IMG/VR virus record: IMGVR_UViG_3300025529_000271
DNA length: 20,000 nt
Direction: 5' to 3' (one strand)
Source: an uncultured virus (IMG/VR IMGVR_UViG_3300025529_000271)
Taxonomy: Duplodnaviria > Heunggongvirae > Uroviricota > Caudoviricetes
Positions within the stretch are counted from its first letter, which is position 1; each line of letters begins with the position of its first letter. This document shows positions 1-20,000 of the stretch, in pieces. The translations under genes were made by a program, and so were the position numbers. The notes beneath the pieces were generated by a model. The model was given only the letters and a program-made list of their open reading frames with translations, did no database searches and had not been told where the DNA came from.

Positions 1-3000
1 CCGGCTACCGATCCGGTGAAGAACTTCAGCTATACGGGCAGTGTCCAAACCTACACGGCTCCGGCAACGGGTAAGTATCAACTGGAGGTTTGGGGCGCTC
101 AAGGTGGCGGCTCGGCGGCTGGTAAGGGTGGTTATGCGAAGGGCGAAATTTACCTGACGAAGGGACAAACCATCCATATCTATGTTGGCGGTCAAGGTTC
201 TCGCGGTACGGGCACGAATGGTGTCCTTGCCGGAGGTTGGAACGGTGGCGGTGATGTCGTATCACCGTATTCGGACGGTAACAACTCGTCGGGCGGTGGC
301 GCTACGGATATTCGAGTTGGGGGTACGAACCTCTCTAATCGTGTGATCGTTGCGGGCGGCGGTGGCGGTGTTGTAACGCCGATGACAGCTACTCCGCATG
401 GCGGAGGTACGTCAGGTTTGGCGGGTACGCATAACTCGACGGTGACAGGCACTGGCGGTACGCAAACGGGCGGCGGCACAGGCAACTATGGAAATGGTGA
501 GCTTGGAAAAGGTGCTAACGGTTCGAGAGCGGGCGCTGGTGGTGGTTACTATGGCGGCGGTACGTCATGGGGTAGTTACTACGGTTCTGGAGCCGCTGGT
601 GGCGGTGGTTCTGGCTATATCGGCGGGGTAACGAATGGTGCGCTCCTTGCGGGTGACCAAACGATGCCAAATCCGAGCGGGGGTACCATGACGGGTCGTT
701 CGGGTAATGGTTATGCTCGGATCACACCGCTGACGAAGTTTGAAACGTCTGGTCTGGATATCTCGACGACGGGAATGTTCGGTTATACTTGGGCGCAGTT
801 GCTTGGTTCTCAGTGGTCGAGCATTCTGACGATCACGGACAACAATGGTTTCATTACGGCAACGCTCAATCAGGCAAACCTGAATGCACGGGCGAACACG
901 ATTCCGAAGACCATGCCGGATGGTTCGTCGAACCCATTCCTAATCTGCATGCTTTCGATTGGCGGTTATACATCGCTTGGTGCGATGGAAGGTGCGTCGC
1001 TCCGTCAAGGTGCGAGCATTGTGGATCAAACTTATCCAGGAACTAACTTGAAGTTTAAGACTATCAAGTTGGCGAGCGGATCGGATGTTCCTACCGCAAC
1101 GTCTAAAACGCTGAATTTGAAGCCTAATGCAGAGTACATTGTGGAGTTCAGCTACTGGACGTCGGGCGGCACCACGAAGTTCAACGTTGACCTTTACCCG
1201 GATATGTTGCCAGAGCATCACTTGACAGCGTCGTCTACAGTGAAGAAGGCGCAACTTTCCTTCAAGTCCGGTAATGCGAATATGGCAAATGCGGCTTTGC
1301 GGTTCTTCAACGACCTGCAACGTCCGAATCCGACCGATGTGTATATCACGGGTATTCGGATTTATCCGAAGCCGATCTACAATGCGCACGAGCACAACGA
1401 ATCTTGTAGGCTCATCAAGACGTTGGACTGCACAGAGCCGCATCATATCGGTCAGCACTATGATAAGGGTAATACCATCTGTTGGGACGCTTGCGGTATC
1501 GATGAAAACCATAAGAAAGACCACGAGCATGTTCAACTTCCGGGCGGCGGTTCGGTAACACGGAGTAACTTCATTAACCTTGACTACACGTTCACTCTGT
1601 ACTTCCCGAACCGGGGTAACTTCGCAGAGCAACCGAATATGCGCGGTATCTCAACCACTATGTATACGCGGGGGTATGGTTATACGAACAACATGGACAC
1701 CACGCAGTATACCGCCGCGAAGCGGGTGCGATTCGATTTCCATGTTATCTATAACAATAAGTTGTATCGTTCGGGTACGTGGATTGGTCTCCCTGTAAAT
1801 CAGGAGTATTTCGAGTTCTACCTGCCGTTGGCGAATAAGGAATCTGTTTCGGCGCAAGTGCAGTTTGAGGCGGTTCCGATTAACGGTCGTCCGATTGGTT
1901 CTCCTTTCAATGAGAACTATATCGACACCGCTAACCGCGCACGTTATGCGGGAATCCGCGCTCTGCATGGGGCGTATAAGCAGTCCTATATTGACGTTGT
2001 CGGACGTGTTGGTAACTTCGCAGTCATGGATACGGAAGACTTCCGCTTCAGCAACTTGTTCAAGGAAGCCAAGAATGATGGTACGTGGCAAGTCGAAGGG
2101 TTGGTTCCGACGGTTGACCCAACGAAGCAAAATCGTTACTATGGTGACTTGATTGACATTCGTGGGGTAGCCTATAACGCAACTAACACTTATCTTGACA
2201 CTTACGGTAACCAATCGTGGAAGAATAAGCCGCCGTTGGCACTTCCGGTCAATGCTCTTGATAACACCATCCCGGCGTTGCAAGGGCAGTATCTTAAGAT
2301 CGGTTACGATATCTTGGCGGATTTGACGACTATCGGGGACTATCAGAATGGTTTGGTACGTGTTCTGCCGTACTACTATAAGCTCGATCTTGATAAAGGT
2401 ACGATCACTCCGCTTGACGTTTATACGAAGGTGGGTGACGAGTATAAGCCGATTAACAAGTATCGGGCGGCGGATAACGGTACTTTGCCGACTGATTTGG
2501 CTCCGTACAATGTCAGCATGTCGTGGGCGGATGAGCGTGAACGTCGCAACTACTCTTTGAGTGAAGCGACGATTACTGAACGGATCACGAACTTCTACGA
2601 AGAGATTATCACCGATAGCTCGGGTGAGAACGTCATCGGTCGGAAACAGTTACCAGCCCCGGCGGGTAGCTATATCAGCATGGGTAACGCGCAACGGTTG
2701 GTGTTGGATAAGAAGATGCGAACGTTCATCGGTTCTTCTGCGACTAACGGAGTCAACCGGAATCCGGGCAACGTTCTCCCGGTAACGGACTACGATTTCC
2801 AAGCGCAACGTTGGCACCTTAAATTCGGGGTACCGTCGTCGGCAGTCTTTGTACCGCATGGTATGCAACCGACCTTGGAGAACATCGAATCGGTGAAGGC
2901 GGGTAACAGCTTGATCCTGTTGGCGGCTGATATCGTGGTGTTGGGTGACGTGTACACGCTCCGTTATCAGCAACCGGGTGTTAACTCGTTCACGGCTTCG

Positions 3001-3117
3001 AAGAATGGGGTAACCCGGACGTTCAGCTTGGTTAACAGCGGTCTGCCACCTGTGATCGCGCTCTATGATACGGACACCAGTTCGATCATCGACATCGCGA
3101 CTAAGGGAAGTCACTAA
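1..3117 (+). CDS. C-terminal part (5'-truncated) of a very large modular, probably surface/secreted protein: Gly-rich (PF12810 ALK/LTK GRD-like) domain, CBM/galactose-binding-like beta-sandwich, His/Cys-rich segment, long C-terminal region; candidate pilus-associated adhesin
   Basis: Frame 1 is open from base 1 (PATDPVKNFSY...), so the GTG at 16 is probably internal. FSYTGSVQTYTAP..YQLEVWGAQGG..YVGGQG..GGGATDIR..IVAGGGGG..GNGYARIT (about 16-730) matches the Gly_rich domain pattern. LKPNAEYIVEFSY..LRF..VYITGIRIY (about 1100-1370) is CBM-like. A strong terminator follows the stop codon. Confidence 0.8.
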   Translation, partial: PATDPVKNFSYTGSVQTYTAPATGKYQLEVWGAQGGGSAAGKGGYAKGEIYLTKGQTIHIYVGGQGSRGTGTNGVLAGGWNGGGDVVSPYSDGNNSSGGGATDIRVGGTNLSNRVIVAGGGGGVVTPMTATPHGGGTSGLAGTHNSTVTGTGGTQTGGGTGNYGNGELGKGANGSRAGAGGGYYGGGTSWGSYYGSGAAGGGGSGYIGGVTNGALLAGDQTMPNPSGGTMTGRSGNGYARITPLTKFETSGLDISTTGMFGYTWAQLLGSQWSSILTITDNNGFITATLNQANLNARANTIPKTMPDGSSNPFLICMLSIGGYTSLGAMEGASLRQGASIVDQTYPGTNLKFKTIKLASGSDVPTATSKTLNLKPNAEYIVEFSYWTSGGTTKFNVDLYPDMLPEHHLTASSTVKKAQLSFKSGNANMANAALRFFNDLQRPNPTDVYITGIRIYPKPIYNAHEHNESCRLIKTLDCTEPHHIGQHYDKGNTICWDACGIDENHKKDHEHVQLPGGGSVTRSNFINLDYTFTLYFPNRGNFAEQPNMRGISTTMYTRGYGYTNNMDTTQYTAAKRVRFDFHVIYNNKLYRSGTWIGLPVNQEYFEFYLPLANKESVSAQVQFEAVPINGRPIGSPFNENYIDTANRARYAGIRALHGAYKQSYIDVVGRVGNFAVMDTEDFRFSNLFKEAKNDGTWQVEGLVPTVDPTKQNRYYGDLIDIRGVAYNATNTYLDTYGNQSWKNKPPLALPVNALDNTIPALQGQYLKIGYDILADLTTIGDYQNGLVRVLPYYYKLDLDKGTITPLDVYTKVGDEYKPINKYRAADNGTLPTDLAPYNVSMSWADERERRNYSLSEATITERITNFYEEIITDSSGENVIGRKQLPAPAGSYISMGNAQRLVLDKKMRTFIGSSATNGVNRNPGNVLPVTDYDFQAQRWHLKFGVPSSAVFVPHGMQPTLENIESVKAGNSLILLAADIVVLGDVYTLRYQQPGVNSFTASKNGVTRTFSLVNSGLPPVIALYDTDTSSIIDIATKGSH

Positions 3118-3133
3118 TCAATTCTGTGACTAT

Positions 3134-3165
3134 AGCCCTCTAACTTCGGTTAGAGGGCTTCTTTT
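3134..3165 (+). terminator. Rho-independent terminator
   Basis: AGCCCTCTAAC-TTCG-GTTAGAGGGCT: perfect 11-bp stem with a C(UUCG)G loop, followed by TCTTTT, 16 nt after the stop at 3117. Confidence 0.9.
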
Positions 3166-3175
3166 CCGTCAATTT

Positions 3176-3203
3176 TAGACTTCCCTTGATTTTTCGTTAT
3201 ATT
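3176..3203 (+). promoter_or_regulatory. Possible sigmaA-type promoter for the M23/tad operon
   Basis: TAGACT-16 nt-TATATT between the terminator and the RBS AAAGGAGG (3214-3221). The match to consensus is only moderate. Confidence 0.35.
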
Positions 3204-3228
3204 GAGCACAGCGAAAGGAGGTTGGGGC

Positions 3229-4614
3229 ATGCGAACTTCGAGGAAGGCAAGACAGCGCTTGCAGAAAAAGCGTAAAAAGCAGAACAAAAAGATGGCGTTG
3301 ACCATCGTCACTTCGCTTTTGGTAACTTCGCAGTTAAATTTTCCGGCGTATGCTTACACTGTGGATGATCTTCGGGAACTGCAGGGTAAGGATCGTTTAG
3401 ATACGAAATATTCGGAGGAAGAGAAGTCTGAAATCTGGTTGAACTGGTATCGAACTGAGTACAGAAATAATGTGGCAAAAATGATGCAAAATGTTTCTTT
3501 GGAGGACTTGGTCGAAGCTCCTAAACAGAAACGCGACGCCTTGGGGCGAGAATTACAGGCTCTCCAGAAGGATTTTGCTAATCGCTTTACTTCTGGCGCT
3601 TCGGTGCGAGAGGTCTTAGCGGGGTATTCTGCGATTCAAACTAAGCGTCATGAGTTGATGCAAGTTAAGGAGGTTGGGGAAGTTCTGCGGCTTGATGTCG
3701 TGCCTAATGAGTGGGAGTCTTTGGTGGAAGACATTCAAGCTATTGAGGAAGAGGTGCAAACCTACCAATCTCTTGGAGATGTCGGTTCGTCTTTGAAGTC
3801 TCCGGCGTTCGGTAATTTTCATCTTACGTCTATTTATGGGCTTCGCGCTGATCCGCTCAATGGGACTCTTGCCATGCATCGTGGTATCGATCTTGGCGCT
3901 CCTGTTGGAACTCCAGTTCTTGCGGCTTGGAACGGGACGGTAGCGGACACCTATCGTTCCGAGCGAGGGGGTAATGTGATCGTTATTGATCATGGAAATG
4001 GGCTTGTAACTAAGTATATGCACTTGGATGAAATTGAAGTCGAGCCGGGACAAGCTGTAAAGCAGTATGATCGTATTGGTACGGTCGGAGATACGGGTCG
4101 GGTTACCGGTGCGCATTTGCACTTTGAGGTTCATTTGGATGGTGAGAGTGTAGATCCGATCTATTTCTTTGGGAAAATGGGAGCAAATGCGTTGAAGGAT
4201 TACCTTAGCCGTAATCTTGAGGATCGTAACGAGCAGACGGAAGCTTTGGTTTCCGCTATTATGGACAAGCCACTCCATACTACAGATACTGGTGGTTCTT
4301 CTGGTTCTTCTGAGCAAATCTATATTCGTGATGGCGAAGTGCCGGATGGGGCTGTTGATCTGAAGTTGGAGGAGGGATATGAAGTTCCTACACCTAAGAT
4401 TTCGAAGCGAGACTGGGATTCATTGTTGGATTCGATGCGCTCGGATCAGCCTACGATTCGGTACGAGGGGGAAAGCACCGCGAATTCCTCGGGGTCTTCT
4501 GCACCTATGTCTACTCCAAATTCGATGCATTCCAACAATTCTGAATCCTCGGATAGTTCGCTTCCTTCGGCAAGCAGTATGCGTGAGTTTTTGAAAATTG
4601 ATGGGGGTGAGTAA
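3229..4614 (+). CDS. Secreted M23-family (LytM/NlpD-like) zinc metallo-endopeptidase with an N-terminal helical region and a Ser-rich C-terminal tail
   Basis: HRGID (HxxxD) and GAHLHFEV (HxH) zinc motifs, plus GNVIVIDHGNGLVTKYMHL. Basic N-region, hydrophobic core and AYA|YT signal-peptidase-like site. Start moved from 3202 to ATG 3229 because AAAGGAGG lies 7 nt upstream of it. Confidence 0.9.
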   Translation: MRTSRKARQRLQKKRKKQNKKMALTIVTSLLVTSQLNFPAYAYTVDDLRELQGKDRLDTKYSEEEKSEIWLNWYRTEYRNNVAKMMQNVSLEDLVEAPKQKRDALGRELQALQKDFANRFTSGASVREVLAGYSAIQTKRHELMQVKEVGEVLRLDVVPNEWESLVEDIQAIEEEVQTYQSLGDVGSSLKSPAFGNFHLTSIYGLRADPLNGTLAMHRGIDLGAPVGTPVLAAWNGTVADTYRSERGGNVIVIDHGNGLVTKYMHLDEIEVEPGQAVKQYDRIGTVGDTGRVTGAHLHFEVHLDGESVDPIYFFGKMGANALKDYLSRNLEDRNEQTEALVSAIMDKPLHTTDTGGSSGSSEQIYIRDGEVPDGAVDLKLEEGYEVPTPKISKRDWDSLLDSMRSDQPTIRYEGESTANSSGSSAPMSTPNSMHSNNSESSDSSLPSASSMREFLKIDGGE

Positions 4615-5214: not shown

Positions 5215-6132
5215 ATGGCGTTTCTAAAGAGTGTGAAAGGGATTTTGACGCTATCTTTGGTTCTCAGTTGGTTGGCTCTCGGTGGGGCGGGGTATTTTTA
5301 TTGGGACAAAACCACCAAGACTATTGAACAAAAGGACTCTGAGATCGCAAGGTTGCAGTCGGATTTGGACAGTATCGGTCAGCTTATTCCGGTGTATGCT
5401 TTGTCTTCTGATGTGAAGATGGGGAAACAGGTTCAGGAAACGGACTTCCATGAAGTTTTGGTTCCGGTTGGTGCGGCGGCGAATATGCTTACTTCTTTCG
5501 AGGAGCTGGTGGGTAAATATTATAAAGTTGACCTTACCGCTGGTACGATCATTTCCCCGGATGTGGTGTATGACGAGCCGCTGACGGATGATCTTCGTTT
5601 GGTTGACGTGGTGTTGAATAACATTCCGGTAGGGTTGAAGCCGGGTTCATATGTAGACGTTCGGATTACCCTTCCAATGGGTGAAGACTTTGTAGCCCTT
5701 TCTCGCAAACGAGTTCACTCCATCAATGCGGGGGTATTGAAGCTTGTTCTCAGCTCGAAGGACATCCACACTTACAACTCTATGTTGATTGACTCTCTTG
5801 TTTATCCGGGTACTTCGCTATATGCAGTTGAGTATTTGGAAGGTGGCGCTCAACGTGCGGCGGACGTATATTACCCTGTTGCTACTAACATTTTGGCTAT
5901 CGCTCAAGCCGATCCGAACTTGCTTGAAGCGATTAAAGCAGATATGCTTCAACGTCGTTCGGATATCGACCAATCCCTTAGTGGTATGTCGACGTTCAAA
6001 AGTCAGCAAGAGTTGGAGCAAACTCTCGTTCGTGGAAGACAGCAGTTCGCATCGCTTATTTCGGCGGCGGATCGTGCGTTCCAAGCTGAGGAAACCAAGC
6101 GGGCGATGGAAGAAGCTCGCGCTAATCGTTAA
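5215..6132 (+). CDS. SAF-domain, CpaB/RcpC-like pilus assembly protein
   Basis: N-terminal TM and coiled coil, then VYALSSDVKMGKQVQETDF..ELVGKYYKVDLTAGTII (SAF-like) and LKPGSYVDVRI (RcpC-like). GGAGG RBS; lies upstream of the TadA-like ATPase. Confidence 0.75.
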   Translation: MAFLKSVKGILTLSLVLSWLALGGAGYFYWDKTTKTIEQKDSEIARLQSDLDSIGQLIPVYALSSDVKMGKQVQETDFHEVLVPVGAAANMLTSFEELVGKYYKVDLTAGTIISPDVVYDEPLTDDLRLVDVVLNNIPVGLKPGSYVDVRITLPMGEDFVALSRKRVHSINAGVLKLVLSSKDIHTYNSMLIDSLVYPGTSLYAVEYLEGGAQRAADVYYPVATNILAIAQADPNLLEAIKADMLQRRSDIDQSLSGMSTFKSQQELEQTLVRGRQQFASLISAADRAFQAEETKRAMEEARANR

Positions 6133-6738: not shown

Positions 6739-7533
6739 ATGCCAGTCACAATTTCGGTTCTTGCGCCACATATTCGTCGTAATGGAGCGACGGTTACAGC
6801 GATGATGTTGTCGATGGCTTTGGCTGAGACTAAGCGTCGTGTCTTTTTGACGCATACGTCATCGCTTTCAGATTCGTTTCAAACCTATATGGGTTTGAAG
6901 CTTCTCGATGATAAGACCAATACTTCAACTCAGTTGGTCAAGCTTCTTCGGGAGGGTGCTTTGAAGCCAGAGGACGTGGCGGATTATTGTACGAAGTTCG
7001 GTGACTACACGGACGTGTTCACCAATTTCGATAATCTGTTCACGCCGTATGATATGGGTACGCTCTTGGCGTATATGGCAGATGCGGAGTCGCCTTATGA
7101 GTATAAGGTTATTGATGTGGACACTCCACTTTCGGAGGATAATGCCAGCGCCATTATAGCTAAATCCCATATTGTCGTGCTGAATATTACGCCGGATTTC
7201 TTGGAGCTTAAGTTGTTTAAGCAGTGGTTGAAGGATAATGAACGTACCCTTCGGGGTAAGAGACTTTTGCTCTGTTGTAATCGTTACGATCCTGTTGTGG
7301 TGAAGAAGCCTAAAATTATCACCAACTTCTTGGAGGTAAAAACTCCGCTTCATCTCATTCGTGAGAATTCGTGGGTACGTTGGGGTTGTAACAATGGAAA
7401 GCTCCCGTTGGTGTTTATCAACGGCAAAAACAAAAATGCACTCTCTATTGACGTGTATAAGGGGTATATGGCTCTCTCGAACTCCGTGGTTAAACTTCGA
7501 AATCGTATCTTGAAGTCACGCGGGGGTGTTTAA
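6739..7533 (+). CDS. TadZ/CpaE-like (MinD/ParA family) protein with a degenerate Walker A
   Basis: ISVLAPHIRRNGATVTAMMLSMALAETKRRVFL; YEYKVIDVD (Walker B-like); SHIVVLNITPD; LCCNRYD. RBS AAGGAG; directly upstream of tadA. Confidence 0.75.
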   Translation: MPVTISVLAPHIRRNGATVTAMMLSMALAETKRRVFLTHTSSLSDSFQTYMGLKLLDDKTNTSTQLVKLLREGALKPEDVADYCTKFGDYTDVFTNFDNLFTPYDMGTLLAYMADAESPYEYKVIDVDTPLSEDNASAIIAKSHIVVLNITPDFLELKLFKQWLKDNERTLRGKRLLLCCNRYDPVVVKKPKIITNFLEVKTPLHLIRENSWVRWGCNNGKLPLVFINGKNKNALSIDVYKGYMALSNSVVKLRNRILKSRGGV

Positions 7534-7536: not shown

Positions 7537-9699
7537 ATGTTGAACACCGTCTTAACGATAGCGAGTATTGTTGGTTTTGTCATCGCCCTCATTGTGGTGT
7601 ATTATATCTCTAAATCTCGGACGGAGTTCATCCCGGAGGAAGAGTACAACACAATGGAAGATCTTCTGGAAGCGGTTAAGCATGAAATGGTAGAACTCGT
7701 TAAAGAGGATTATTCTCTTGGTCTTTCGGAAGCGGAGTTCAATATGTTGTATCGGCGTAAAGCTCGGATTAACGATGCTTTGAAGAACTGCGTTTATGGT
7801 ATTGACTCTGCGAAGATTATTGTCATTGAGTTGATCCGTTCTTTTATCGCCAATAATGTACCACATCATCGGGTCACGGACTTGCTTGGTCTGTCGGATG
7901 GTTTGGTTCCGTCCGACCATGTCATTTTCGAGATCCTGTTGTATAAGTATAAGCGCATGCTGGATGAGAACAATCAGCAACTTGGGAAGAAAGCTCTTGA
8001 AGCCATTATTACTAAGTACAATCTCGACCGCGAGCGCTATGATGAGAACGGGAATTTGCAGAACTATTATTTTTCTCGCGAGGAACTGATCTCCATTTAT
8101 ACGCAAGAGGACTTCAAGCTTACGATAGATGAGCAAATCGACCTCTTGGCGATCTTGGTGTATCAGCAGTATGCGGGCTTTGGTATCCTTGACACCTTAC
8201 GTGAGATGGACATCAACGGCTTCAATATTGGCACTTCCGGTAGTATTATGACGAACTTGAATGCTTATAATGCTGGGACGTTCAAAGCGACGGATTCGGT
8301 CTGGGTGTATTACAAAGGGAAGTACATCCATTTCCGCTTCATGTCCTTTGGTAGTGAAGACGAAGTTCGTCGGGTCGTACAGCTTATCGCTCGTTATAAC
8401 AATCCGGGTGCGCTCACAGCGAAGCGGGGGTATTTGGTCAATACTATGTATGACAAATCCCGCGTTTTGGCACTTCGACCTCCGGCTTCTGAGTACTGGG
8501 CGGTCTTTGTTCGGAAGTTCACCATTTCTGATCCGACACCTGAGAAGCTCATTATCAAGGATTATACCGTTAACGGCGATTTGGTTATTAACTTGATCAA
8601 GTTCTTGATCAAGGGCAAGATGACGTGCGGGGTAACTGGGCGTCAAGGTTCCGGTAAGACCACGCTGATGTCCTCGATCATTCGTTATATTGATCCGCGT
8701 TTGACCATCCGGGTCTTGGAAATGGCTCCTGAGTTGTACTTGCGGGAAATTTATCCGAATCGTAACATCCTTTCTGTTCAGGAGACGACGCACGTTACTG
8801 CTACGGAGCTTCAGGACGCTCTGAAGAAATCTGACGCCGCTGTTTCGTTGGTCGGTGAGGTCGCAACTGACGAGGTTGCGGCGCGGATGATTCAAATGGG
8901 TATGACCGCATCGATGTTTACCATCTTCTCTCACCACGCGAACACCGCTGAGAAGTTGGTATATACTCTGCGGAACTCGCTGGTTAACGCGGGTGGCTTT
9001 ACGATGGATACGGCAACGGCGCAGATCCTCGAAGTTGTCAACTTCGATATCCATTTGGATTACAACGCCGAAGGTCAGCGTTATATTGAGCGGATTACGG
9101 AAATTATCCCGCTCTTGGAGGTTCAGCCGCTTCCTGAGATTGATCCGAATAATGTGGCGTATTCGCAAGCCGTTATGCAACGCGAGTATTACACTCGACG
9201 CACAGCGGCGGTCACCTTCATTACGCAGGATATCTTGCGATATGATACGAAAACGAAGACTTATTACGCGGTGGAACGTATTTCTCCTCGATTGGAGAAA
9301 ATTATCCGTGATAATTTGGGGCATGAAGTCGAGGAGTTCGATAAGTTCATGTTGGCTAACTGGGGACGCCGCAAACCATTGGCGGATGGGCAGGTTGTGG
9401 AAGATCCAGTGGCGCTTTCGGTTCTCGATCATTATCGCTTGAAAGCGGCAAAAGAGCAGAATACCGACTCTCCGATTTTGCAAGGCTTGTCGGCTACTGC
9501 CCAACAAGCGGATATGGAGGAAATGCTTACTGATGACATGATCGAGTATCTGCGTCAGGAAATTATGGCTGACGAAGAGCATAAGAAACGTTTGGTTTCT
9601 AATGACACCAGCGATGAGTTGACTCCGGGTCTTCCGAACGACATTGACGAAGACCATGTAGTTATGCTCGACTTCTTCACTGGAGGTGTCGAGACGTAA
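7537..9699 (+). CDS. tadA: TadA/CpaF-family pilus assembly ATPase with an N-terminal TM anchor and an acidic C-terminal extension
   Basis: Walker A GRQGSGKTT (8638-8664), Asp-box variant LEMAPEL, Walker B VSLVGEV (about 8842-8862), His box SHHANT (about 8929-8946). Also VRKF and RYIERITEI, which are typical of the family. Confidence 0.85.
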   Translation: MLNTVLTIASIVGFVIALIVVYYISKSRTEFIPEEEYNTMEDLLEAVKHEMVELVKEDYSLGLSEAEFNMLYRRKARINDALKNCVYGIDSAKIIVIELIRSFIANNVPHHRVTDLLGLSDGLVPSDHVIFEILLYKYKRMLDENNQQLGKKALEAIITKYNLDRERYDENGNLQNYYFSREELISIYTQEDFKLTIDEQIDLLAILVYQQYAGFGILDTLREMDINGFNIGTSGSIMTNLNAYNAGTFKATDSVWVYYKGKYIHFRFMSFGSEDEVRRVVQLIARYNNPGALTAKRGYLVNTMYDKSRVLALRPPASEYWAVFVRKFTISDPTPEKLIIKDYTVNGDLVINLIKFLIKGKMTCGVTGRQGSGKTTLMSSIIRYIDPRLTIRVLEMAPELYLREIYPNRNILSVQETTHVTATELQDALKKSDAAVSLVGEVATDEVAARMIQMGMTASMFTIFSHHANTAEKLVYTLRNSLVNAGGFTMDTATAQILEVVNFDIHLDYNAEGQRYIERITEIIPLLEVQPLPEIDPNNVAYSQAVMQREYYTRRTAAVTFITQDILRYDTKTKTYYAVERISPRLEKIIRDNLGHEVEEFDKFMLANWGRRKPLADGQVVEDPVALSVLDHYRLKAAKEQNTDSPILQGLSATAQQADMEEMLTDDMIEYLRQEIMADEEHKKRLVSNDTSDELTPGLPNDIDEDHVVMLDFFTGGVET

Positions 9700-11660
9700 T
9701 GGAAGCTTTGTTGATCATCTACGCCTTATTCATCCCCATTGGGGGTATCTTCTTCTGGTACTCCCGAAAACCCAAGGCGGAAAAACTCCGCATCATGAAT
9801 AAGTTTTATTCGCGGATGCACAAGTTTCTGTCTCGGTTTTTCTTGACTTATCGCTATTATCTGCGTATTCAGCAAAATCTGGCGAACCTGTCGATTTATC
9901 GGAAGGATGAACTTCGACGTGAGTCGGTGAAATACTTCCTGTGGTCGTGGGGTAGCAGTATTGTTTTGGCGGTAGTCATGATCCTTTTGTTTAACAACAT
10001 CCTGATCATCCTGATTGGGGTAGGTTTCACTATCTTCTTGAGCAACATCGTTATTGATAAACGCCTTGATGGGATATATCTCAGGGTTTTGGTGGCGACC
10101 GCGCATGCTCTTGATGCGGTGCGGCAGGAGTATTCCCGTACCAACAGTGTTGTAGATGCGCTGAATGAAGCGGAGTACCCTGACATTATTAAGCGTCCGA
10201 TGGAAACCATTTCAAATATCTTGACAGGAACGAACGGAGAGATTCGTTTGCAGGAGTTTATTGAGTCTACTCCGTTTCGTCCACTTCAAACGTTCGCGTC
10301 GATCTGTTTTAGCATTAACAATGATGGTGATGAAACAGACGAGTTGGGGCGCTCCAACTTTTCGCAAGCCATTACGCTCTTGATTGGGGATATTAACTCG
10401 GAAATCCAGCGGATTACCTTCCGCAAACTCAAGTTTGGTTATATCGAGTACATGCCATTGGCAGTTATTCCAGCGGTACCGCTTTGTATCATGTTTTTGA
10501 CCTCCACGATGCCGGGGGTAGCCCTCGTTTATAATGGGATTATCGGTCAAGTTATTCAAACGGCGGTTGTTTTTGCTTCGATTCTTTGCTACACGGTTGT
10601 TTCTCGAATCAACTGTAATATCCCGATGAAAGAGGATGACCGTTCTCCTTTTGTTGAGCGTTTGTTGGAGAATCGTCGCTTCTATCGTTTTGTTTACACG
10701 CTCACGCCGAAGAACAAAAAGCGGGCGTTGTTGGAACGGAAGTTGAAATCCGCACTTTCCAAAATGACCGTTGAACACTTTTACGCGAAGAAGATCTTAT
10801 TCGCGGGTTTTTCGATCCTTCTAGCGATTATGACGATCATTTTGGCGGTTAGTATCAGCAAGGACTTCTTGCGGCATAGTACGCAACAGCTTTCGCTTAT
10901 CGCATCCGATAATACTCCGGCTTTTGACCGCGAAAAAATGAAAGAGATGGACGCCATTTATCTGCAAAACCCGAAAGCCTATAATGACGACCAAATCGCG
11001 CAACTTGTTCGGAATCATCTCCCGCTTCTGACGGATTTGCAGGTGTATGAGCAGGTTTCTCGGATGAAGTCTAAGGCAAAGAACCTTGAGAATGCGTATT
11101 TCCATTGGTATTATCTCTTGATCGCTTACGCGACGGGGGTAGTCGGTTGGTTTGCACCGAATCGTTCACTCAAAATGCGTCGGGATATCGCGGCAACTGA
11201 GGCTCAGGAGGATTTCTTGCAACTGCAGACGCTCACGTCCATTCTTATGAACACCAATACGGATACCCTTGGGCTTCTGCATCAGTTTGCCCGTAATAGT
11301 CGTATTCATAAAGACATGTTTGTCTACGCGGCGCTTTGTTATCCATCTAATCCAGAGTTGGAGATCAGTCGTTTGCAGTCGAAAACGCCAATTTATGAGT
11401 TTAAGCGTTTCCTTGGAAAGCTTAAACTTACGATCAATGAGTTGTCTATTCGAGAGGCGTTTGAGTCTTTGCTTTTGGAGCGCGAGCACGTTGTCAAGAT
11501 GCGGGAAATGACGACACAAGCCGCGATCATGAAGAAGCGGAGAATGGCTGGTAAGTTAGTGTTGTTCCCGCTGGGAATGATGATTATAGGAGTATTCCTG
11601 TTCCCTATCGGTTATCTGGGGGCATTGGAGCTTATGGGTGCGTTCAAGACACTGGGGTAA
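9699..11660 (+). CDS. Multi-pass membrane platform protein, probable TadB-TadC fusion
   Basis: TAATG overlap with the tadA stop. About 8 hydrophobic segments arranged as two halves, each with a soluble helical domain (e.g. ALDAVRQEYSRTNSVVDALNE; EDFLQLQTLTSILM..LSIREAFESL). Occupies the position of tadB/tadC. Confidence 0.7.
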   Translation: MEALLIIYALFIPIGGIFFWYSRKPKAEKLRIMNKFYSRMHKFLSRFFLTYRYYLRIQQNLANLSIYRKDELRRESVKYFLWSWGSSIVLAVVMILLFNNILIILIGVGFTIFLSNIVIDKRLDGIYLRVLVATAHALDAVRQEYSRTNSVVDALNEAEYPDIIKRPMETISNILTGTNGEIRLQEFIESTPFRPLQTFASICFSINNDGDETDELGRSNFSQAITLLIGDINSEIQRITFRKLKFGYIEYMPLAVIPAVPLCIMFLTSTMPGVALVYNGIIGQVIQTAVVFASILCYTVVSRINCNIPMKEDDRSPFVERLLENRRFYRFVYTLTPKNKKRALLERKLKSALSKMTVEHFYAKKILFAGFSILLAIMTIILAVSISKDFLRHSTQQLSLIASDNTPAFDREKMKEMDAIYLQNPKAYNDDQIAQLVRNHLPLLTDLQVYEQVSRMKSKAKNLENAYFHWYYLLIAYATGVVGWFAPNRSLKMRRDIAATEAQEDFLQLQTLTSILMNTNTDTLGLLHQFARNSRIHKDMFVYAALCYPSNPELEISRLQSKTPIYEFKRFLGKLKLTINELSIREAFESLLLEREHVVKMREMTTQAAIMKKRRMAGKLVLFPLGMMIIGVFLFPIGYLGALELMGAFKTLG

Positions 11661-11802: not shown

Positions 11803-12038
11803 GTATTTAAGCGATTGGTTCGGTTTTCTATCGTGAGTAAGTATGTCCATCATTGAAGGCTTCGCTTTCTACGATAGAGATCTTACGAACCGATGGTGAC
11901 ACGCATCATGGTAAGGGCGACAAGGGTTAGCTTCCTTGGAAGGGGGTATTTCTGCAGAACAATTTTTGATTGGTCTGACTGTCGCATAATCTGGGCATCG
12001 TTCAAAATCCAAAATAAAATGACGGAGGGATAAGAACA

Positions 12039-12716
12039 ATGGATGATGGAGTAGCAAAAGGCAGTAATATCGCGGTCGTGCTGGTTATCGTTGCGGCACT
12101 GATCGCACTGGCTTTTGGTATTTTCGTTGTTACGAAGAACCAAGCCAATGAGGGTTCGGCGGACTTGGCGTCCTCGCTGAACACCGTTTCGACGCAGGTG
12201 TTCCAAGATTTCGACCAGAAGGTCGTTACTGGGAACCAAGTTCTGTCGGCTCTGAAGTCGTTTGAAGGTAAACCTTATGCGATCTTGATTTCGACGAAGG
12301 CGTTTGCCAATGACTTCCCGATCGCTCAGTCGAATGACCATCCGGTGGCGTTCATTGTTGAAGCTGGTGGGCAAAACTATATCAACTACAACGCGATTCT
12401 CTCGGCTGATGGCACGGACATTACCACCGCTCCGACGAATGCGGCTGGCTGGCCTGCAACTTCGGTTACGGCGATCTCTGGAGGTCAACGTGGTGGAGCT
12501 ATCAACCCGGTCATCACGATGACGAGCGAAAATGGGGTATTCCTGCATACCACGGGCTTCCAGACGGTTCAAGGGAACATTTTCTATGACAACTCGATTG
12601 GCGGGGTTAACCGTTCCGGTAACTCGGAGTACATCCCGGCAACGACGAAGTTCCAAGCGAACCTCATCAAAGACGCTTCCGGCGCGTATGTCGGTATCGT
12701 TCTGCGTCAACTGTAA
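12039..12716 (+). CDS. Pilin-like single-TM protein, candidate major pilin
   Basis: Short leader MDDGVAKG, then a hydrophobic helix, an amphipathic helix and a beta-rich head. GGAGG RBS; flanked by terminators; C-ending codons (AAC, TTC, ATC) more frequent than in neighbouring genes. Confidence 0.7.
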   Translation: MDDGVAKGSNIAVVLVIVAALIALAFGIFVVTKNQANEGSADLASSLNTVSTQVFQDFDQKVVTGNQVLSALKSFEGKPYAILISTKAFANDFPIAQSNDHPVAFIVEAGGQNYINYNAILSADGTDITTAPTNAAGWPATSVTAISGGQRGGAINPVITMTSENGVFLHTTGFQTVQGNIFYDNSIGGVNRSGNSEYIPATTKFQANLIKDASGAYVGIVLRQL

Positions 12717-16420: not shown

Positions 16421-16477
16421 CCGAACAGAGAGAAAGTGCGTCGTTTCTTACGATGTACTTTCTCTTTGTGTTTTCGG
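16421..16477 (+). other. Long RNA hairpin in the leader of the 16524 gene
   Basis: CAGAGAGAAAGTGCGTCGT-TTCTT-ACGATGTACTTTCTCTTTG: 19 bp, and all three non-Watson-Crick positions are G-U on the + strand. Outer pairing CCGAA/TTCGG. Confidence 0.7.
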
Positions 16478-16523
16478 AGCTAATCTTATATTGAAGCAAA
16501 TTTGTTGAAAAGGAGAGATTGGG

Positions 16524-16970: not shown

Positions 16971-17208
16971 TGGGTTTGATATGTATTATCAGTTCTCGGA
17001 TTGGTTGAACGGGGCGACAGAAGCGGAGAAACGGCAGTTTGTCAATGCCGCTCTGGGGGATCATCGTGAGTTGCAGAATGATCTGTTCTACCTGTTTCTC
17101 GGTTGTGTTCAGGGTTGGGCGCGAGCAGGAAGGGTAGGTAATTTCGACGCACGGAATGCGCATGCGGTGCAAGCGAGTACGGTGATCGCACAAACACTGA
17201 AATTGTAG
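16954..17208 (+). CDS. Small hypothetical protein
   Basis: GTG 16954 follows AGGAGGTG and overlaps the end of the preceding gene; about 84 aa, predicted helical. Confidence 0.65.
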   Translation: MAKRVNGFDMYYQFSDWLNGATEAEKRQFVNAALGDHRELQNDLFYLFLGCVQGWARAGRVGNFDARNAHAVQASTVIAQTLKL

Positions 17209-17290
17209 GACTTACCCCTAATATACTTTATGATGGGTCTTGTGACACAGCTCACATAAGGTATATTCTATCTAGCTGGAGGGGTAGTTC

Positions 17291-17845
17291 ATGAAAAAGT
17301 CTCGCCAAAAGCTCTTGGCGCTTGGGGTAGTTGCACTTAGCTTGGTGATCGCTGTAGGTATCGCAGTTGCAGGGTCGTGGTGGGGTAAGGATGAGGAACA
17401 GGTTGCTGAGGGGAGCTATGAAGCCTTCGATCCGAATAGCAAACCGTCAACTGATAGTGAATCGGTTCCATTCGATCTTGCGGAGCTTCGCAAGCAAGGG
17501 AAGCCGATCCTCATTGATTTTACTGCCACTTGGTGTATCCCTTGTAAAACGTTCAATCCGATCTTGAATGAGGTCAAAGAAGAGTACGCGGATAAGGTTA
17601 TTATCGAGCTGGTGGACGTCGACAAGTATCGCAGTTTTGCTACCTATTACCCCCTGAGGGGTATTCCGTCGCAACTCTTGTATAATAGCGACGGGGAACC
17701 GTTTATTCCGCAAAATGCGGAGGTTAGCGGTTTGTTTGGTTTTCGGACTTTCCGTTCGGGGGAAGAGATTGTGACTCTGCATGAAGGAACTCTTTCGAAG
17801 GAAAGTTTGTTGGTACTTCTTGAGCGAATGGGGTTAGAGTTATGA
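17291..17845 (+). CDS. Membrane-anchored extracytoplasmic thioredoxin-family protein
   Basis: GKPILIDFTATWCIPCK (WCxxC), LRGIPS (cis-Pro loop), N-terminal signal/TM; GGAGG RBS. Confidence 0.9.
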   Translation: MKKSRQKLLALGVVALSLVIAVGIAVAGSWWGKDEEQVAEGSYEAFDPNSKPSTDSESVPFDLAELRKQGKPILIDFTATWCIPCKTFNPILNEVKEEYADKVIIELVDVDKYRSFATYYPLRGIPSQLLYNSDGEPFIPQNAEVSGLFGFRTFRSGEEIVTLHEGTLSKESLLVLLERMGLEL

Positions 17846-18555
17846 TTACGTCTTGGTTGGAGCAACTTTCCCTGTTCTTCTATCAATCTTCCCCATTCGC
17901 TTTTGTTATCGCTGTGGTAGCGGGGGTGCTTACGGCGTTCACGCCTTGTTCGCTTTCTACGGTTCCGCTCGTTCTCGCCTATTTTGGTGGGACTTCGGAG
18001 CGTTCCACGCGGTCTACGTTATCCATCGTCGCTTTTTTGACGATGGGTTTCGTGCTTTTTAGCACCGTTTTGGGTGTGGTGATCGCGCTTACGGGTCGAA
18101 TGTTAACAATTCAATGGAACATGCCCTACGTTTACCTTGTCTTGGGGATACTGCTTGTGCTTATGGCGGTTCAGACGTGGGGTATTTGGGAAATTATCCC
18201 TTCGACTTACCTGCAGTCGAAGGTCAAACGTAAGGATCGCGTCGGTGCTTTTTTGGTTGGTGGATTAAGCGCTGTCTTTTCGTCACCCTGTACGACCCCG
18301 GTAACGGTAGCCTTGTTAGCGGGGGTATCGTTGCAAGGGGATTGGTTAGCGGGGGCGGGGTACTTAGCTTTATACGCACTTGGACATGCGGTGGTTTATC
18401 CTACTGTGGCGTTTGCCGCGAAGGGGGTTAAACGACTTCAGCGCAGTCCGGTGATGCAAAAGTATGTGTTCTCTTTGAATCTCGTTCTTGGTCTTCTATT
18501 TTTCGCTTTTGGTACTTATTTAGTCTCTTTGTTTTTCACGACACGTTTGTTATAA
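17842..18555 (+). CDS. ccdA: CcdA/DsbD-family transmembrane electron transporter
   Basis: AGVLTAFTPCSL and VFSSPCTTP Pro-Cys motifs, about 6 TM helices; ATGA overlap with the thioredoxin gene. Confidence 0.9.
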   Translation: MITSWLEQLSLFFYQSSPFAFVIAVVAGVLTAFTPCSLSTVPLVLAYFGGTSERSTRSTLSIVAFLTMGFVLFSTVLGVVIALTGRMLTIQWNMPYVYLVLGILLVLMAVQTWGIWEIIPSTYLQSKVKRKDRVGAFLVGGLSAVFSSPCTTPVTVALLAGVSLQGDWLAGAGYLALYALGHAVVYPTVAFAAKGVKRLQRSPVMQKYVFSLNLVLGLLFFAFGTYLVSLFFTTRLL

Positions 18556-18556
18556 T
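18548..18556 (+). promoter_or_regulatory. Extended -10 promoter element overlapping the ccdA stop
   Basis: TGTTATAAT is a perfect TGnTATAAT. The -35 is weak (TTGTTT at 18529-18534). Confidence 0.5.
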
Positions 18557-18674
18557 ATTAGCGACTGGAAGAATCGAGATCCGATATTGTTAGAATTTTA
18601 AGACCTATCGACTGTAGGTTAGATTCTTCGCTCGGTTCTACCATTTTAAGACTTAAATAAAGGAGCGATATGAA

Positions 18675-20000
18675 ATGAGGAAATCGATCAAACGTCTGTT
18701 TTGTACCATCCTTCTGTTGACACTGGTTGTCAGCCCCGTTTCGGCTTTCGCCGCCGACACCAAATCGTCGGGCGAATCCTCCAACTCAACGCATCAAATC
18801 ATCGACGGCTACAGTTACTCCAACGAGGCGGTTTACATCCTCGACGAGATCAACCGCTACCGCCGCGACATGGGTCTGCCGGAAGTGAAATTAGATCCGT
18901 TTCTCACTCAAGCCGCTCAAAACCATGCGGATTACCTTGAGATGAATGATACCACTGGTCACAAGGAGGTTAAAGGAAAGCCGGGGTTTACTGGGGAGGA
19001 TGTTTTTGCTCGGGTACTGGCTGTGGCGGGAAGTAAATTTGGTTTGCGTACAGGGTACGGGGCGGAAAGTGAGATTATTTCCTATCATCCTTTGGAGCAA
19101 GCGGTTGATTCGTTGATTTGGGTACCTTTTCATAGAGAACCGCTTATAGATTATTCCAGCGTAGCGGTAGGTGTTGGGATAAGTGGTAAGGCTGTTGTTC
19201 TTGTGGTTGCACCGTTAGAGTCTTTGTGGTGGGACGGAAATCAAAATGGCTTCACTTTCCCTTACGACGGGCAAAAAGATGTGCCGCCGGTCATGTTGAG
19301 TGACGAGAATCCTAGTCCATTGACTGGTACTAAGTATAAATCTTATGAAGAAGTCGGAACTGTCATTTCCTTCTTTGTTGACCCGAAGGAAAAATTCGAT
19401 CCTTCTAGTGTTTCGATAACGTCTGAAAAAGGCGAAAAAGTGGATTTTGTAGTCAAAAAGAAAGACGGGAAATACAGTCTTAGCGATGAATTGGATCATT
19501 GGTACATCCTTCCTTCTAAGTTGAAGGGAAATACGACTTATACCGTCAAAGCACACGGGAAAAAGTGGTCTTTCACGACTGGGGAAGGGGATTCTAAAGT
19601 AGAGTCTCCGAAGCCAGAGAAAAAGGCGGGTCACATCTGGGTCAGCCCAACCGAGCAAAAATCCCTTGAGGAACTTCGCAAACGCACTAAGTTCTTCGAC
19701 ACCAACTCCAAGTCCGGTTACGTCAACGTACTGGTCAACGGCAAGGAAATTGTCACTAACCCTCGGGCACATGTCGTAAACGGTCAGACCTTTATCCCCT
19801 TGCGCGGGGTATTCGAAGCCCTCGGCGCTGAGGTTAGCTGGGAGAGCGTCTATCGTCAAGTTTCGATCAGGTATAAGGACAAGATTGTGATTTTGCAACT
19901 CGACAATAAGGAAGCGCGTGTCATTCAGGTTGAAACTCCTACGAATCCGAGGGCAAAAGAGACTAAAGTGACCCTTTCCAACGCTCCGTTCGCCAAGAAC
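18675..20000 (+). CDS. Secreted CAP/SCP-domain protein with an Ig-like middle region and a copper-amine-oxidase-N (stalk) domain; 3'-truncated
   Basis: Absent from the ORF track because it has no stop in the window; translated by hand. Signal peptide MRKSIKRLFCTILLLTLVVSPVSAFA|AD; CAP motifs INRYRRDMGLPEVKLDPFLTQAAQNHADYL..GH and WVPFHREPL; LKGNTTYTV..WSFTTG; VLVNGKEI..VVNGQTFIPLRGVFEALGAEVSW. RBS AAGGAG. Confidence 0.88.
   Translation, partial: MRKSIKRLFCTILLLTLVVSPVSAFAADTKSSGESSNSTHQIIDGYSYSNEAVYILDEINRYRRDMGLPEVKLDPFLTQAAQNHADYLEMNDTTGHKEVKGKPGFTGEDVFARVLAVAGSKFGLRTGYGAESEIISYHPLEQAVDSLIWVPFHREPLIDYSSVAVGVGISGKAVVLVVAPLESLWWDGNQNGFTFPYDGQKDVPPVMLSDENPSPLTGTKYKSYEEVGTVISFFVDPKEKFDPSSVSITSEKGEKVDFVVKKKDGKYSLSDELDHWYILPSKLKGNTTYTVKAHGKKWSFTTGEGDSKVESPKPEKKAGHIWVSPTEQKSLEELRKRTKFFDTNSKSGYVNVLVNGKEIVTNPRAHVVNGQTFIPLRGVFEALGAEVSWESVYRQVSIRYKDKIVILQLDNKEARVIQVETPTNPRAKETKVTLSNAPFAKN

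What the first reader, a model, noticed from the sequence alone, without database searches (positions are those of the whole stretch)
320..19811. GGGGTA is strongly over-represented and strand-polarised across the whole window
Seen (manual count, may be off by a few): about 48 GGGGTA on + (e.g. 320, 569, 625, 1613, 2164, 2827, 3621, 4706, 5731, 7461, 8629, 9742, 11654, 11943, 13464, 15195, 17281, 18322, 19806). TACCCC occurs only twice (17213, 17648). Sister hexamers are much rarer (GGGGTC about 1, GGGGTG about 6, GGGGTT about 12), and a uniform expectation is about 5 per 20 kb. The motif occurs in all three codon phases (GGG GTA, nGG GGT A, nnG GGG TAn) and between genes, so one dipeptide cannot explain it. 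Inference: it is a replicon-wide oriented DNA signal, about one per 400 bp. Candidates are a primase start site on the lagging-strand template (compare T7 5'-GGGTC-3' templating pppACCC), a Chi-like or KOPS/SRS-like motif, or a site for an element-encoded DNA-binding protein.
Basis: partly seen in the sequence, partly recalled or inferred. Interest (0 to 1): 0.8.

Follow-up and report, generated by a model that had tools for sequence, protein, structure and literature searches.

The report
One-strand GGGGTA word saturating genes
An uncultured Clostridia-like bacterium writes the six-letter word GGGGTA about every 400 bases on one DNA strand, in all three reading frames and against its own codon habits, which marks a selected directional signal whose reader is still unknown.

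Summary
GGGGTA occurs 48 times on + and twice on -. It survives codon-aware controls: 46 copies in genes against 9.7 +/- 2.8 after synonymous-codon shuffling (z = 13). 45 of the 97 places where the proteins allow the word carry it, at 44-48% in each reading frame. Every one-letter variant, G-runs and Shine-Dalgarno-like words stay at background. A second assembly at 98.8% identity keeps 52 of the sites. One of 16 related lineages (L007, 32% G+C) has the related word GGGTA(T) at 73:0. None of about 624 Clostridia genomes reaches this density.

So this is a selected, strand-specific word of DNA or RNA. It is not a dipeptide, a codon-pair effect, a repeat or a single mutation bias.

All readable genes lie on +, and only 22.5 kb of a 273-kb record could be read. 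I therefore could not test whether the word covers the replicon, or whether its polarity follows replication or transcription.

Best guess, at low confidence: a very dense Chi-like site for an AddAB/RecBCD-type enzyme. Rivals are a KOPS/SRS-like guide, a primase start, a transcript signal, or an element-specific reader.

This scan has noted similar one-strand words before on other DNA, in phages and a giant plasmid.

The parts
320..19811 (+). Field of 48 exact GGGGTA copies on the + strand. Starts: 320, 569, 625, 680, 1613, 1671, 2164, 2827, 3007, 3621, 3968, 4706, 4796, 5289, 5731, 6175, 7253, 7461, 8427, 8629, 9742, 9949, 10017, 10515, 11136, 11654, 11943, 12534, 13269, 13464, 13553, 13843, 14232, 14541, 15046, 15195, 15469, 16029, 16170, 16829, 17281, 17324, 17382, 17658, 18179, 18322, 18357, 19806.
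   Evidence: One search gives the positions. Searches give the codon phases (21/15/10) and show no flanking consensus; 45 of 97 synonymously permitted sites carry the word.
17213..17218 (-). One of the only two reverse-strand copies (TACCCC on +). It lies between genes.
17648..17663 (.). The second reverse copy (17648-17653) forms the palindrome TACCCC-CTGA-GGGGTA with the + copy at 17658, inside the thioredoxin-like gene.
   Evidence: context line of site 17658
11943..11948 (+). Intergenic copy, 96 nt upstream of the pilin-like gene.
17281..17286 (+). Intergenic copy overlapping the ribosome-binding site (GGAGGGGTA) of the thioredoxin-like gene.
1..3117 (+). 3' part of a giant ORF (at least 1859 aa in L005) with an ALK/LTK-type glycine-rich domain. 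It holds 9 copies at 27 permitted sites.
3202..4614 (+). M23 peptidase-domain protein (context gene).
5215..6132 (+). Protein with a weak SAF-domain hit (E 4.2e-4, 21.2 bits against a curated cut-off of 21; 0 stretches passed on their own). 'CpaB-like' is my reading, not a tool result. Context gene.
7537..9699 (+). TadA/CpaF-like secretion ATPase (T2SSE domain). This was the query that retrieved the related loci.
9699..11660 (+). 653-aa protein with no family hit. Its place after the ATPase is conserved in L007. All 6 of its 6 permitted sites carry the word.
12039..12716 (+). Pilin-like protein with a hydrophobic N-terminus (context gene).
17291..18555 (+). Thioredoxin-like gene and DsbD_TM/CcdA-like gene, both syntenic with L007. 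Synteny between the two strains ends just after them, at about 18586.
18675..20000 (+). CAP-domain plus Cu_amine_oxidN1-domain protein, absent from the other strain at this place. It has 1 copy in 1.4 kb.

Best explanation
GGGGTA is a short word kept by selection on one strand only, the G/T-rich strand, which is also the coding strand of every gene here. It is written into genes through synonymous choices in all three frames. Its density is conserved rather than its exact places.

The reading I commit to is a Chi-like site. A helicase-nuclease of the AddAB/RecBCD kind would enter at a broken end to the right of the window and travel leftwards. It would meet 5'-GGGGTA-3' on the 3'-ended strand and switch from degrading DNA to loading RecA.

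Shown: the enrichment, the polarity, the frame independence, the strict six-letter unit, the turnover of sites, and the restriction to certain lineages.

For: Selection at the level of the word:
- 46 copies in genes against 9.7 +/- 2.8 after synonymous shuffling.
- 45 of 97 permitted sites are used: 21/44, 15/34 and 9/19 by phase.
- 21 of 44 Gly-Val pairs are GGG-GTA, although GGG is 28% of Gly codons and GTA 18% of Val codons.

The unit is exactly six letters:
- Every one-letter variant has 12 or fewer copies on +.
- GGGG is at 1.09x expectation, and all four following letters are enriched 3-6x.
- Making the word from its variants needs different base changes at several positions, so one context-dependent mutation cannot produce it.

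It is not an assembly artefact or a repeat:
- 52 sites are shared with a second assembly at 98.8% identity.
- There is no flanking consensus and no repeat family.

Density rather than place is kept: the window and L007 share only 4 orthologous GGGTA positions out of 22 and 47.

Resemblance to Chi:
- Known Chi-type words are short, asymmetric and G-rich, and differ between lineages. One can be a sub-word of another: B. subtilis AGCGG lies inside S. aureus GAAGCGG, and 89.7% of the S. aureus sites are co-oriented with replication (passages of bioRxiv 10.1101/2021.07.08.451572).
- Here the core GGGTA is shared, extended at the 5' end in one lineage and at the 3' end in the other.
- G>C and T>A on +, especially at third codon positions (G 32.4/C 20.8, T 33.8/A 13.0%), fit a leading strand, which is the active Chi orientation.
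Against: - No addAB/recBCD gene and no genome are at hand, and there is no functional test.
- All genes lie on +. The same data therefore fit a signal in the transcript, and the skews fit coding-strand effects as well as replication.
- The density (2.4 copies per kb on +) and the use of 46% of permitted sites far exceed any selected Chi on record. E. coli has one per 4.6 kb, and phage LLS one per 1.86 kb (PMC12315714 section 15).
- None of about 624 Clostridia genomes has such a density. The maximum is 0.9 per kb, close to its control word. Yet 2 of 17 lineages carrying this gene cluster have it. That fits a word private to the cluster or its element better than a host-wide Chi, unless the hosts are unsampled.
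- Sites varied between the two strains at the background rate: 6 differences in 348 motif columns against 1.2% overall. The test has little power.
Confidence: 0.3

Rival explanations
1. A KOPS/SRS-like guide. The word orients an FtsK/SpoIIIE-type DNA pump, either the chromosomal one or a pump of a large transferable element, so that DNA is moved in one direction.
For: 96% of copies lie on one strand (48:2), as for KOPS/SRS-type words, and the word is G-rich. Homologues of the TadA-like ATPase at 33-39% identity lie on Bacillota megaplasmids of 150-540 kb, so a large element is conceivable.
Against: Known guides are 7-8 letters long at about one per 4-12 kb (my recollection; no paper was read for this). 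This word is six letters with no information in its flanks and about ten times denser. No pump gene lies in the readable DNA. A flip of polarity at a dif site could not be looked for.
Confidence: 0.15
2. A signal in the transcript (GGGGUA), read on the long co-directional mRNAs of this surface-structure locus, for example by an RNA-binding protein or by the transcribing polymerase.
For: The word lies on the coding strand of every gene. Enrichment is seen in this gene cluster in 2 of 17 lineages but genome-wide in none of about 624 genomes. The density may fall after the end of synteny, with 1 copy in 1.4 kb (not significant).
Against: I know of no precedent for a hexamer at one per 400 nt in mRNA. 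The obvious candidate, an internal Shine-Dalgarno-like site, is rejected: GGGGTG pairs better with the 16S rRNA 3' end (recalled sequence) but is at 0.72x expectation, GGAGGT at 1.36x and AGGAGG at 0.89x. 15 orthologous clusters do without the word.
Confidence: 0.15
3. A primase start site on the lagging-strand template. The primer would be pppACCCC, with the 3' A of the site not copied, by analogy with T7 GGGTC.
For: The word lies on the strand that would be the lagging-strand template if + is the leading strand. Its form, a G-run followed by T and one more letter, matches the preferred T7 site (recalled). Copies are spaced somewhat more evenly than random subsets of the permitted sites (CV 0.75 against 1.16 +/- 0.17, P = 0.0004 in L005).
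Against: The even spacing rests mostly on the giant glycine-rich gene. Without that gene P = 0.14, and L007 shows none. Bacterial DnaG enzymes need only trinucleotides (recalled), which are never limiting. No primase is encoded in the 22.5 kb.
Confidence: 0.1
4. A word read by an unknown protein private to this gene cluster or its carrier element, such as a DNA-binding, modifying or transfer-related function, rather than by a host-wide machine.
For: The same rarity argument applies: 0 of about 624 genomes against 2 of 17 cluster lineages. The two enriched lineages are not sisters in the ATPase tree, which is an unresolved polytomy, and they differ by 15 points of G+C. This scan has noted one-strand words on other phages and on a giant plasmid (unchecked leads).
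Against: There is no candidate reader among the 20 ORFs: 11 of the 20 have no Pfam hit and none has a nucleic-acid-binding domain. 15 related clusters with the same genes lack the word.
Confidence: 0.15
5. A by-product without function: mutation bias, evasion of a Type III restriction enzyme, or an uptake-sequence drive.
For: One-orientation sites protect against Type III enzymes (recalled for T7 and EcoP15I). The locus encodes a Tad-like pilus, and Tad pili can take up DNA in one actinobacterium (recalled). In L007 the use of permitted sites does not depend on local density (51% against 52%), as a per-site drive would predict.
Against: Mutation bias would need several different base changes that all converge on one hexamer. 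Type III evasion predicts loss of the reverse word, not a five-fold gain of the forward one, and TACCCC is not significantly depleted (1 against 2.7 +/- 1.4). Uptake sequences occur in both orientations (recalled), whereas here the ratio is 48:2.
Confidence: 0.05

Closest known systems
Chi sites of AddAB/RecBCD organisms (B. subtilis AGCGG, S. aureus GAAGCGG, L. lactis GCGCGTG, E. coli GCTGGTGG)
   Same: A short, asymmetric, G-rich word, mostly inside genes, strongly co-oriented (S. aureus 89.7%), specific to a lineage, with related species sharing a core (passages of bioRxiv 10.1101/2021.07.08.451572).
   Different: About 10-20 times denser than the selected Chi words: 2.4 per kb on + here, against 335 in 2.82 Mb for S. 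aureus and 1 per 4.6 kb for E. coli. Codon usage does not explain it, whereas it largely does for E. coli and S. aureus Chi according to that preprint. No enzyme, genome or assay is available here.
Chi-rich mobile elements (coliphage LLS, phage P1; Zheng et al. 2025, PMC12315714)
   Same: A mobile genome that accumulates one polar word far above expectation. LLS has 23 Chi, 20 of them in the active orientation (section 15 read).
   Different: LLS has one per 1.86 kb, clustered near one end. Here the density is one per 0.4 kb, spread evenly over 22.5 kb. The host's Chi is unknown, and it is not known that this DNA is mobile.
KOPS (E. coli GGGNAGGG) and SRS (B. subtilis GAGAAGGG) guides of FtsK/SpoIIIE
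   Same: G-rich and nearly all on one strand.
   Different: Those are eight letters at about one per 10 kb, and they flip at dif (recalled). This word is six letters and far denser, and no flip could be tested.
T7 gp4 primase recognition sites (5'-GGGTC-3' and relatives)
   Same: The form is a G-run, then T, then one uncopied letter. It would lie on the lagging-strand template if + is the leading strand.
   Different: I do not recall T7 sites being enriched in the T7 genome. No primase is encoded here.
DNA uptake sequences (Haemophilus USS, Neisseria DUS)
   Same: About one per kb, inside genes in all frames, using a large share of the possible sites.
   Different: Uptake sequences are 9-12 letters and occur equally in both orientations (recalled). 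Here the ratio is 48:2.

Membership tests
Chi (RecBCD/AddAB regulatory sequence) | A short (5-8 nt) asymmetric word, over-represented beyond composition and codon usage | tested here: met
   Six letters; 46 copies against 9.7 +/- 2.8 after synonymous shuffling; the top hexamer of 4096 (z 13.6, next 4.9, in strain L006).
Chi (RecBCD/AddAB regulatory sequence) | Co-oriented with replication on both replichores | tested here: inconclusive
   48:2 on the G>C, T>A strand. All genes are on that strand too, and no origin or terminus lies in the readable DNA.
Chi (RecBCD/AddAB regulatory sequence) | Present throughout the core genome of the organism | not testable with these tools
   No genome is held, and the records behind L005 and L006 cannot be reached. 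About 624 Clostridia genomes show no such density.
Chi (RecBCD/AddAB regulatory sequence) | Attenuates the cognate helicase-nuclease (in vitro, or by the high-molecular-weight plasmid assay) | not testable with these tools
   This needs an experiment.
KOPS/SRS (FtsK/SpoIIIE-orienting sequences) | A recognition word of about 8 bp | tested here: not met
   There is no information outside the six letters: neighbours are mixed, and all four 3' letters and three of the four 5' letters are similarly enriched.
KOPS/SRS (FtsK/SpoIIIE-orienting sequences) | Extreme strand skew that reverses at dif | tested here: inconclusive
   The 96% skew is met. A reversal cannot be looked for in 22.5 kb.
Primase recognition site (T7 gp4 type) | A cognate primase encoded by the element | tested here: not met
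   None of the 20 ORFs matches a primase in Pfam or PHROGs. This covers only the 20-kb window.
Primase recognition site (T7 gp4 type) | Primers start opposite the site | not testable with these tools
   This needs mapping of Okazaki-fragment 5' ends.
DNA uptake sequence (USS/DUS) | Both orientations about equally frequent | tested here: not met
   48 against 2; 73 against 0 for GGGTA in L007.
Type III restriction evasion (single-orientation sites) | Depletion of the reverse orientation relative to expectation, with no need for a gain of the forward one | tested here: not met
   TACCCC 1 against 2.7 +/- 1.4 (not significant); GGGGTA enriched 4.8x.
Internal Shine-Dalgarno-like sites | Enrichment scales with pairing to the anti-SD | tested here: not met
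   GGGGTG 0.72x, GGAGGT 1.36x, AGGAGG 0.89x, GGAGG 0.88x, against GGGGTA 4.8x. The anti-SD sequence is recalled.

The most novel reading that the evidence does not exclude
The word is not a host-wide Chi. It is a dense one-way track private to a large element (a 230-270-kb megaplasmid-like replicon) that carries this Tad-like pilus/secretion cluster. An element-encoded machine would read it, either a double-strand DNA pump or the enzyme that primes the second strand after transfer. Unrelated carriers (47% and 32% G+C) would have acquired versions of the same core, GGGTA. That would be a new class of genome-wide cis signal, at one per 400 bp and using about half of all synonymous opportunities.
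Probability: 0.12. Interest if true: 0.85.

Novelty: new variant of a known kind. Interest (0 to 1): 0.6.

Why it matters
Polar genome words such as Chi, KOPS and SRS are known for only a handful of cultured bacteria, and for no Clostridia outside the classical models as far as I recall.

This uncultured lineage uses nearly half of all places where its proteins allow one hexamer, on one strand only. That is a far stronger imprint than any described Chi or KOPS.

If the word is private to an element, it points to an unknown directional DNA machine.

The synonymous-opportunity measure used here is also a simple way to tell such words apart from codon effects. It is the share of permitted sites that are used, counted per reading frame.

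Tried and rejected
Attempts to read more of the same organism:
- No genome is held for the window.
- The genome search cannot reach the records behind L005 and L006.
- The fetch from genomes did not accept a locus id as a handle.
Replicon-wide extent and polarity flips therefore stay untested.

Attempts to find a genome with the same habit:
- GGGGTA counts in 239 genomes of the order of G001.
- GGGGTA counts in 401 genomes of its class. Together the two scans cover about 624 distinct handles.
- None is enriched. The best is G365, with 1629 copies in 1.8 Mb against a control of 1116.
- G001 itself, the closest GTDB carrier of the cluster, has 362 against a control of 421.

Attempt to find phages saturated with the word. 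I looked at five records, four whose locus held two matches and one (G625) with two separate one-match loci. In the three whose places were listed (G625, G626, G629) the dense stretches are local in-frame tandem arrays, not genome-wide fields. G628 gave no places, and no G627 places were among those listed. This was a dead end.

Other searches that led nowhere:
- Megablast of the window against plasmids and phages found no match.
- An ATPase search in viral contigs found no relative.

Explanations rejected:
- Dipeptide, codon usage or codon-pair effect: the shuffles, plus equal use of permitted sites in all three phases.
- Part of a longer repeat.
- G-run or G-quadruplex effect: GGGG 1.09x, GGGGG 0.85x.
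- Internal Shine-Dalgarno-like site.
- A property of the Tad-like cluster as such: 15 of 16 other lineages lack it.
- Shared ancestry of the two enriched lineages: not supported, because the ATPase tree is an unresolved polytomy.

Selection for even spacing is suggestive only. P = 0.0004 with the giant glycine-rich gene, 0.14 without it, and L007 shows no effect.

Paper searches for the word itself ('GGGGTA' with 'strand') and for Chi in Clostridia listed nothing relevant. These two listings are the only basis for saying I found no description of it.

Rfam found no RNA family in the window.


Full report
**1. Observation.**

Dinucleotide-preserving shuffles give 7.8 +/- 2.8 for both strands, and 0 of 200 reach 50.

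No one-letter variant of the word exceeds 12 copies on +.

All long ORFs that make sense as genes lie on +. The + strand is G-rich and T-rich, with GC skew +0.07 to +0.20 and AT skew mostly negative.

**2.

- In 19 genes (18.6 kb) there are 46 copies. Shuffling synonymous codons within each gene, which keeps the protein and the codon usage, gives 9.7 +/- 2.8 (maximum 19 of 500, z = 13). Shuffling codon order gives 6.7 +/- 2.5.
- The copies fall 21/15/10 in phases 0/1/2, against 3.2/4.0/2.6 expected.
- 21 of 44 Gly-Val pairs are spelled GGG-GTA, although GGG is only 28% of Gly codons and GTA 18% of Val codons.
- I counted every place where the protein would allow the word through synonymous choices. 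45 of 97 such places carry it: 21/44, 15/34 and 9/19 by phase, so nearly the same share in each frame. The share is 1-14% for five sister words and 1 of 54 for TACCCC.
- A translation-level codon-pair effect would depend on phase. This one does not.

**3. What the unit is.**

- The 10 positions on either side carry no consensus.
- All four letters after the word and G/T/C before it are enriched 3-6x. GGGG (1.09x), GGGGG (0.85x) and GTA (1.03x) are not enriched.
- There are no longer repeats and no Rfam family.
- TACCCC is not significantly depleted (1 against 2.7 +/- 1.4). The polarity therefore comes from a one-strand gain.
- Reaching the word from its synonymous alternatives needs different substitutions at positions 3 and 6 (GGN-GTA to GGG-GTA; GGG-GTN to GGG-GTA). 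No single context-dependent mutation can make it.

**4. Where the window comes from and what it encodes.**

The genes, in order:
- a giant ALK/LTK-type glycine-rich protein, at least 1859 aa when read in L005;
- an M23 peptidase;
- a protein with a weak SAF-domain hit;
- a TadA/CpaF-like ATPase;
- a 653-aa protein with no family hit;
- a pilin-like protein and several small proteins;
- a thioredoxin-like protein, a DsbD_TM protein, and a CAP/Cu_amine_oxidN1 protein.

The locus looks like a Tad-type pilus/secretion locus. tblastn places ATPase homologues at 33-39% identity on Bacillota megaplasmids, where they are annotated TadA.

Megablast finds nothing in the plasmid or phage collections.

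The metagenome scan found the window itself at the end of a 273-kb contig (L005). It also found a strain at 98.8% identity inside a 229-kb contig (L006).

**5. Independent copies and relatives.**

- L006 has 57:2, and 52 sites are shared with L005. 2 sites are private to L005 and 4 to L006. Differences fall in motif columns at about the background rate, 6 of 348 against 1.2%. The test has little power.
- Synteny between the strains ends just after the DsbD_TM gene, at about window 18586. Beyond it the window has 1 copy in 1.4 kb, and L006 has an unrelated gene of 37% G+C.
- I ran an all-hexamer synonymous-shuffle scan on 18 loci longer than 6 kb: L006 plus 17 loci from 16 other lineages (L008 and L009 are near-identical copies of one; L005 was left out because it duplicates the window). 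GGGGTA is the top word only in the window lineage (z 13.6, next best 4.9).
- It is clearly enriched in one other lineage, L007, where the ATPase is 63% identical and G+C is 32.5%. There GGGGTA is 30 against 11.6 and GGGTAT 41 against 17.1. GGGTA is 73:0, preceded by G/T/A but never C and followed mostly by T. 51-54% of permitted sites are used.
- The other 16 loci (15 lineages) have z from -1.1 to 2.0 and use 0-15% of permitted sites.
- The ATPase tree leaves L005 and L007 in an unresolved polytomy. Only 4 GGGTA positions are orthologous between them, out of 22 and 47. Density, not place, is what recurs.

**6. Is it genome-wide in such organisms?**

I could not read more of the two records.

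As a proxy I counted the word in G001, the closest GTDB carrier of the cluster. It has 362 copies against a control of 421 in 1.8 Mb. I then counted it in 239 genomes of its order and 401 of its class, about 624 distinct genomes. None approaches 2.5 per kb; the maximum is 0.9 per kb, with a similar control count.

Either the two enriched hosts belong to unsampled groups, or the word is private to the cluster or its carrier element. This weakens the host-wide reading but does not refute it.

**7. Spacing.**

In L005 the used sites are more evenly spaced than random subsets of permitted sites (CV 0.75 against 1.16 +/- 0.17, P = 0.0004). Sparse neighbourhoods are used more than dense ones (54% against 21%).

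This rests largely on the giant glycine-rich gene. Without it P = 0.14, and L007 shows no such effect. I treat it as suggestive only.

**8. Mechanism.**

Known one-strand words are read by enzymes that track along DNA in one direction or see a single strand. These are the AddAB/RecBCD enzymes (Chi), the FtsK/SpoIIIE pumps (KOPS/SRS) and primases.

- *Chi* fits best. Its words are 5-8 letters long, G-rich and specific to a lineage, and related species share a core: AGCGG lies within GAAGCGG, whose sites are 89.7% co-oriented in S. aureus (passages of bioRxiv 10.1101/2021.07.08.451572). The geometry is also right if + is the leading strand.
- *The density is unprecedented.* E. coli has one Chi per 4.6 kb, the Chi-rich phage LLS one per 1.86 kb, and P1 one per 1.9 kb (PMC12315714, section 15). 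Here it is one per 0.4 kb.
- *KOPS/SRS* fits the 96% skew but not the length or the density.
- *A primase site* fits the form of the word, but no known selection pressure favours one.
- *A transcript-level signal* cannot be excluded, because every gene is on the motif strand. The Shine-Dalgarno-like version of that idea is rejected.

I give Chi-like 0.30, KOPS-like 0.15, transcript signal 0.15, element-private reader 0.15, primase 0.10, no function 0.05, and the rest unknown.

**9. Earlier notes of this scan.**

They describe one-strand words on other DNA: TTTACG on a giant plasmid, GGTATG and GTAAC arrays in phages, and a GAGTAGGG word that flips at a dif site. These are unchecked leads. One of them gave me the reference PMC12315714, of which I read the abstract and section 15.

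**10. Verdict.**

The interpretation as an oriented, selected signal is supported.

It is a new, unusually dense variant of the known class of polar genome words. The decisive test needs only the full contigs.

Noticed in passing
L007 1-11753: A distant relative (ATPase 63% identical, 32.5% G+C) carries GGGTA 73 times on + and never on -. The word is preceded by G/T/A but never C and is mostly followed by T. 51% of permitted sites are used. This lineage also prefers GTA for Val (193 of 314 codons).
   Followed up: yes
window about 18586 (L005/L006 about 21050): The two 98.8%-identical strains stop being syntenic right after the DsbD_TM gene. The window continues with a CAP/Cu_amine_oxidN1 protein. 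L006 continues with an unrelated 260-aa membrane-like ORF at 37% G+C. This is a strain-variable junction, or the edge of an element.
   Followed up: partly
window 17648-17663 and 7245-7258: Two small palindromes built from the word and its complement: TACCCC-CTGA-GGGGTA and TACCC-TTCG-GGGTA. The first holds one of the only two reverse copies.
   Followed up: no
window 1-3117 and L005 1-5581: A giant ORF of at least 1859 aa with an ALK/LTK-type glycine-rich domain (Pfam E 1e-30) opens the cluster. It is also the place where permitted GGGGTA sites are most numerous and least used (9 of 27).
   Followed up: partly
window, all genes: Third codon positions are strongly G/T-rich: T 33.8% against A 13.0%, G 32.4% against C 20.8%. 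T3 is 2.6-fold above A3. This is unusual for a Firmicute coding strand, which I recall as usually purine-rich.
   Followed up: no
L019, L017, L021 (whole loci): Other lineages show weaker one-strand excesses of other words after synonymous shuffling: L019 GTTTAT 42 against 15.4 (42:3 by strand), L017 TGACCC 12 against 1.9 (12:0), L021 TAAGAA 46 against 21.3. These may be conserved coding motifs, or these lineages' own words.
   Followed up: no
plasmid records NC_019898.1, NZ_CP051681.1, NC_010381.1 and others: TadA-like ATPases 33-39% identical to the window's lie on 150-540-kb megaplasmids of Bacillota (Thermobacillus, Cohnella, Paenibacillus, Lysinibacillus). The cluster type is therefore often plasmid-borne.
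   Followed up: no
viral records G625 (3.1-5.1 kb), G626 (28.2-28.7 kb), G629 (6.0-6.7 and 13.5-14.6 kb): Dense local runs of GGGGTA at spacings that are mostly multiples of 3 or 6 bases. They look like in-frame tandem repeats in phage proteins, unrelated to the field in the window.
   Followed up: partly
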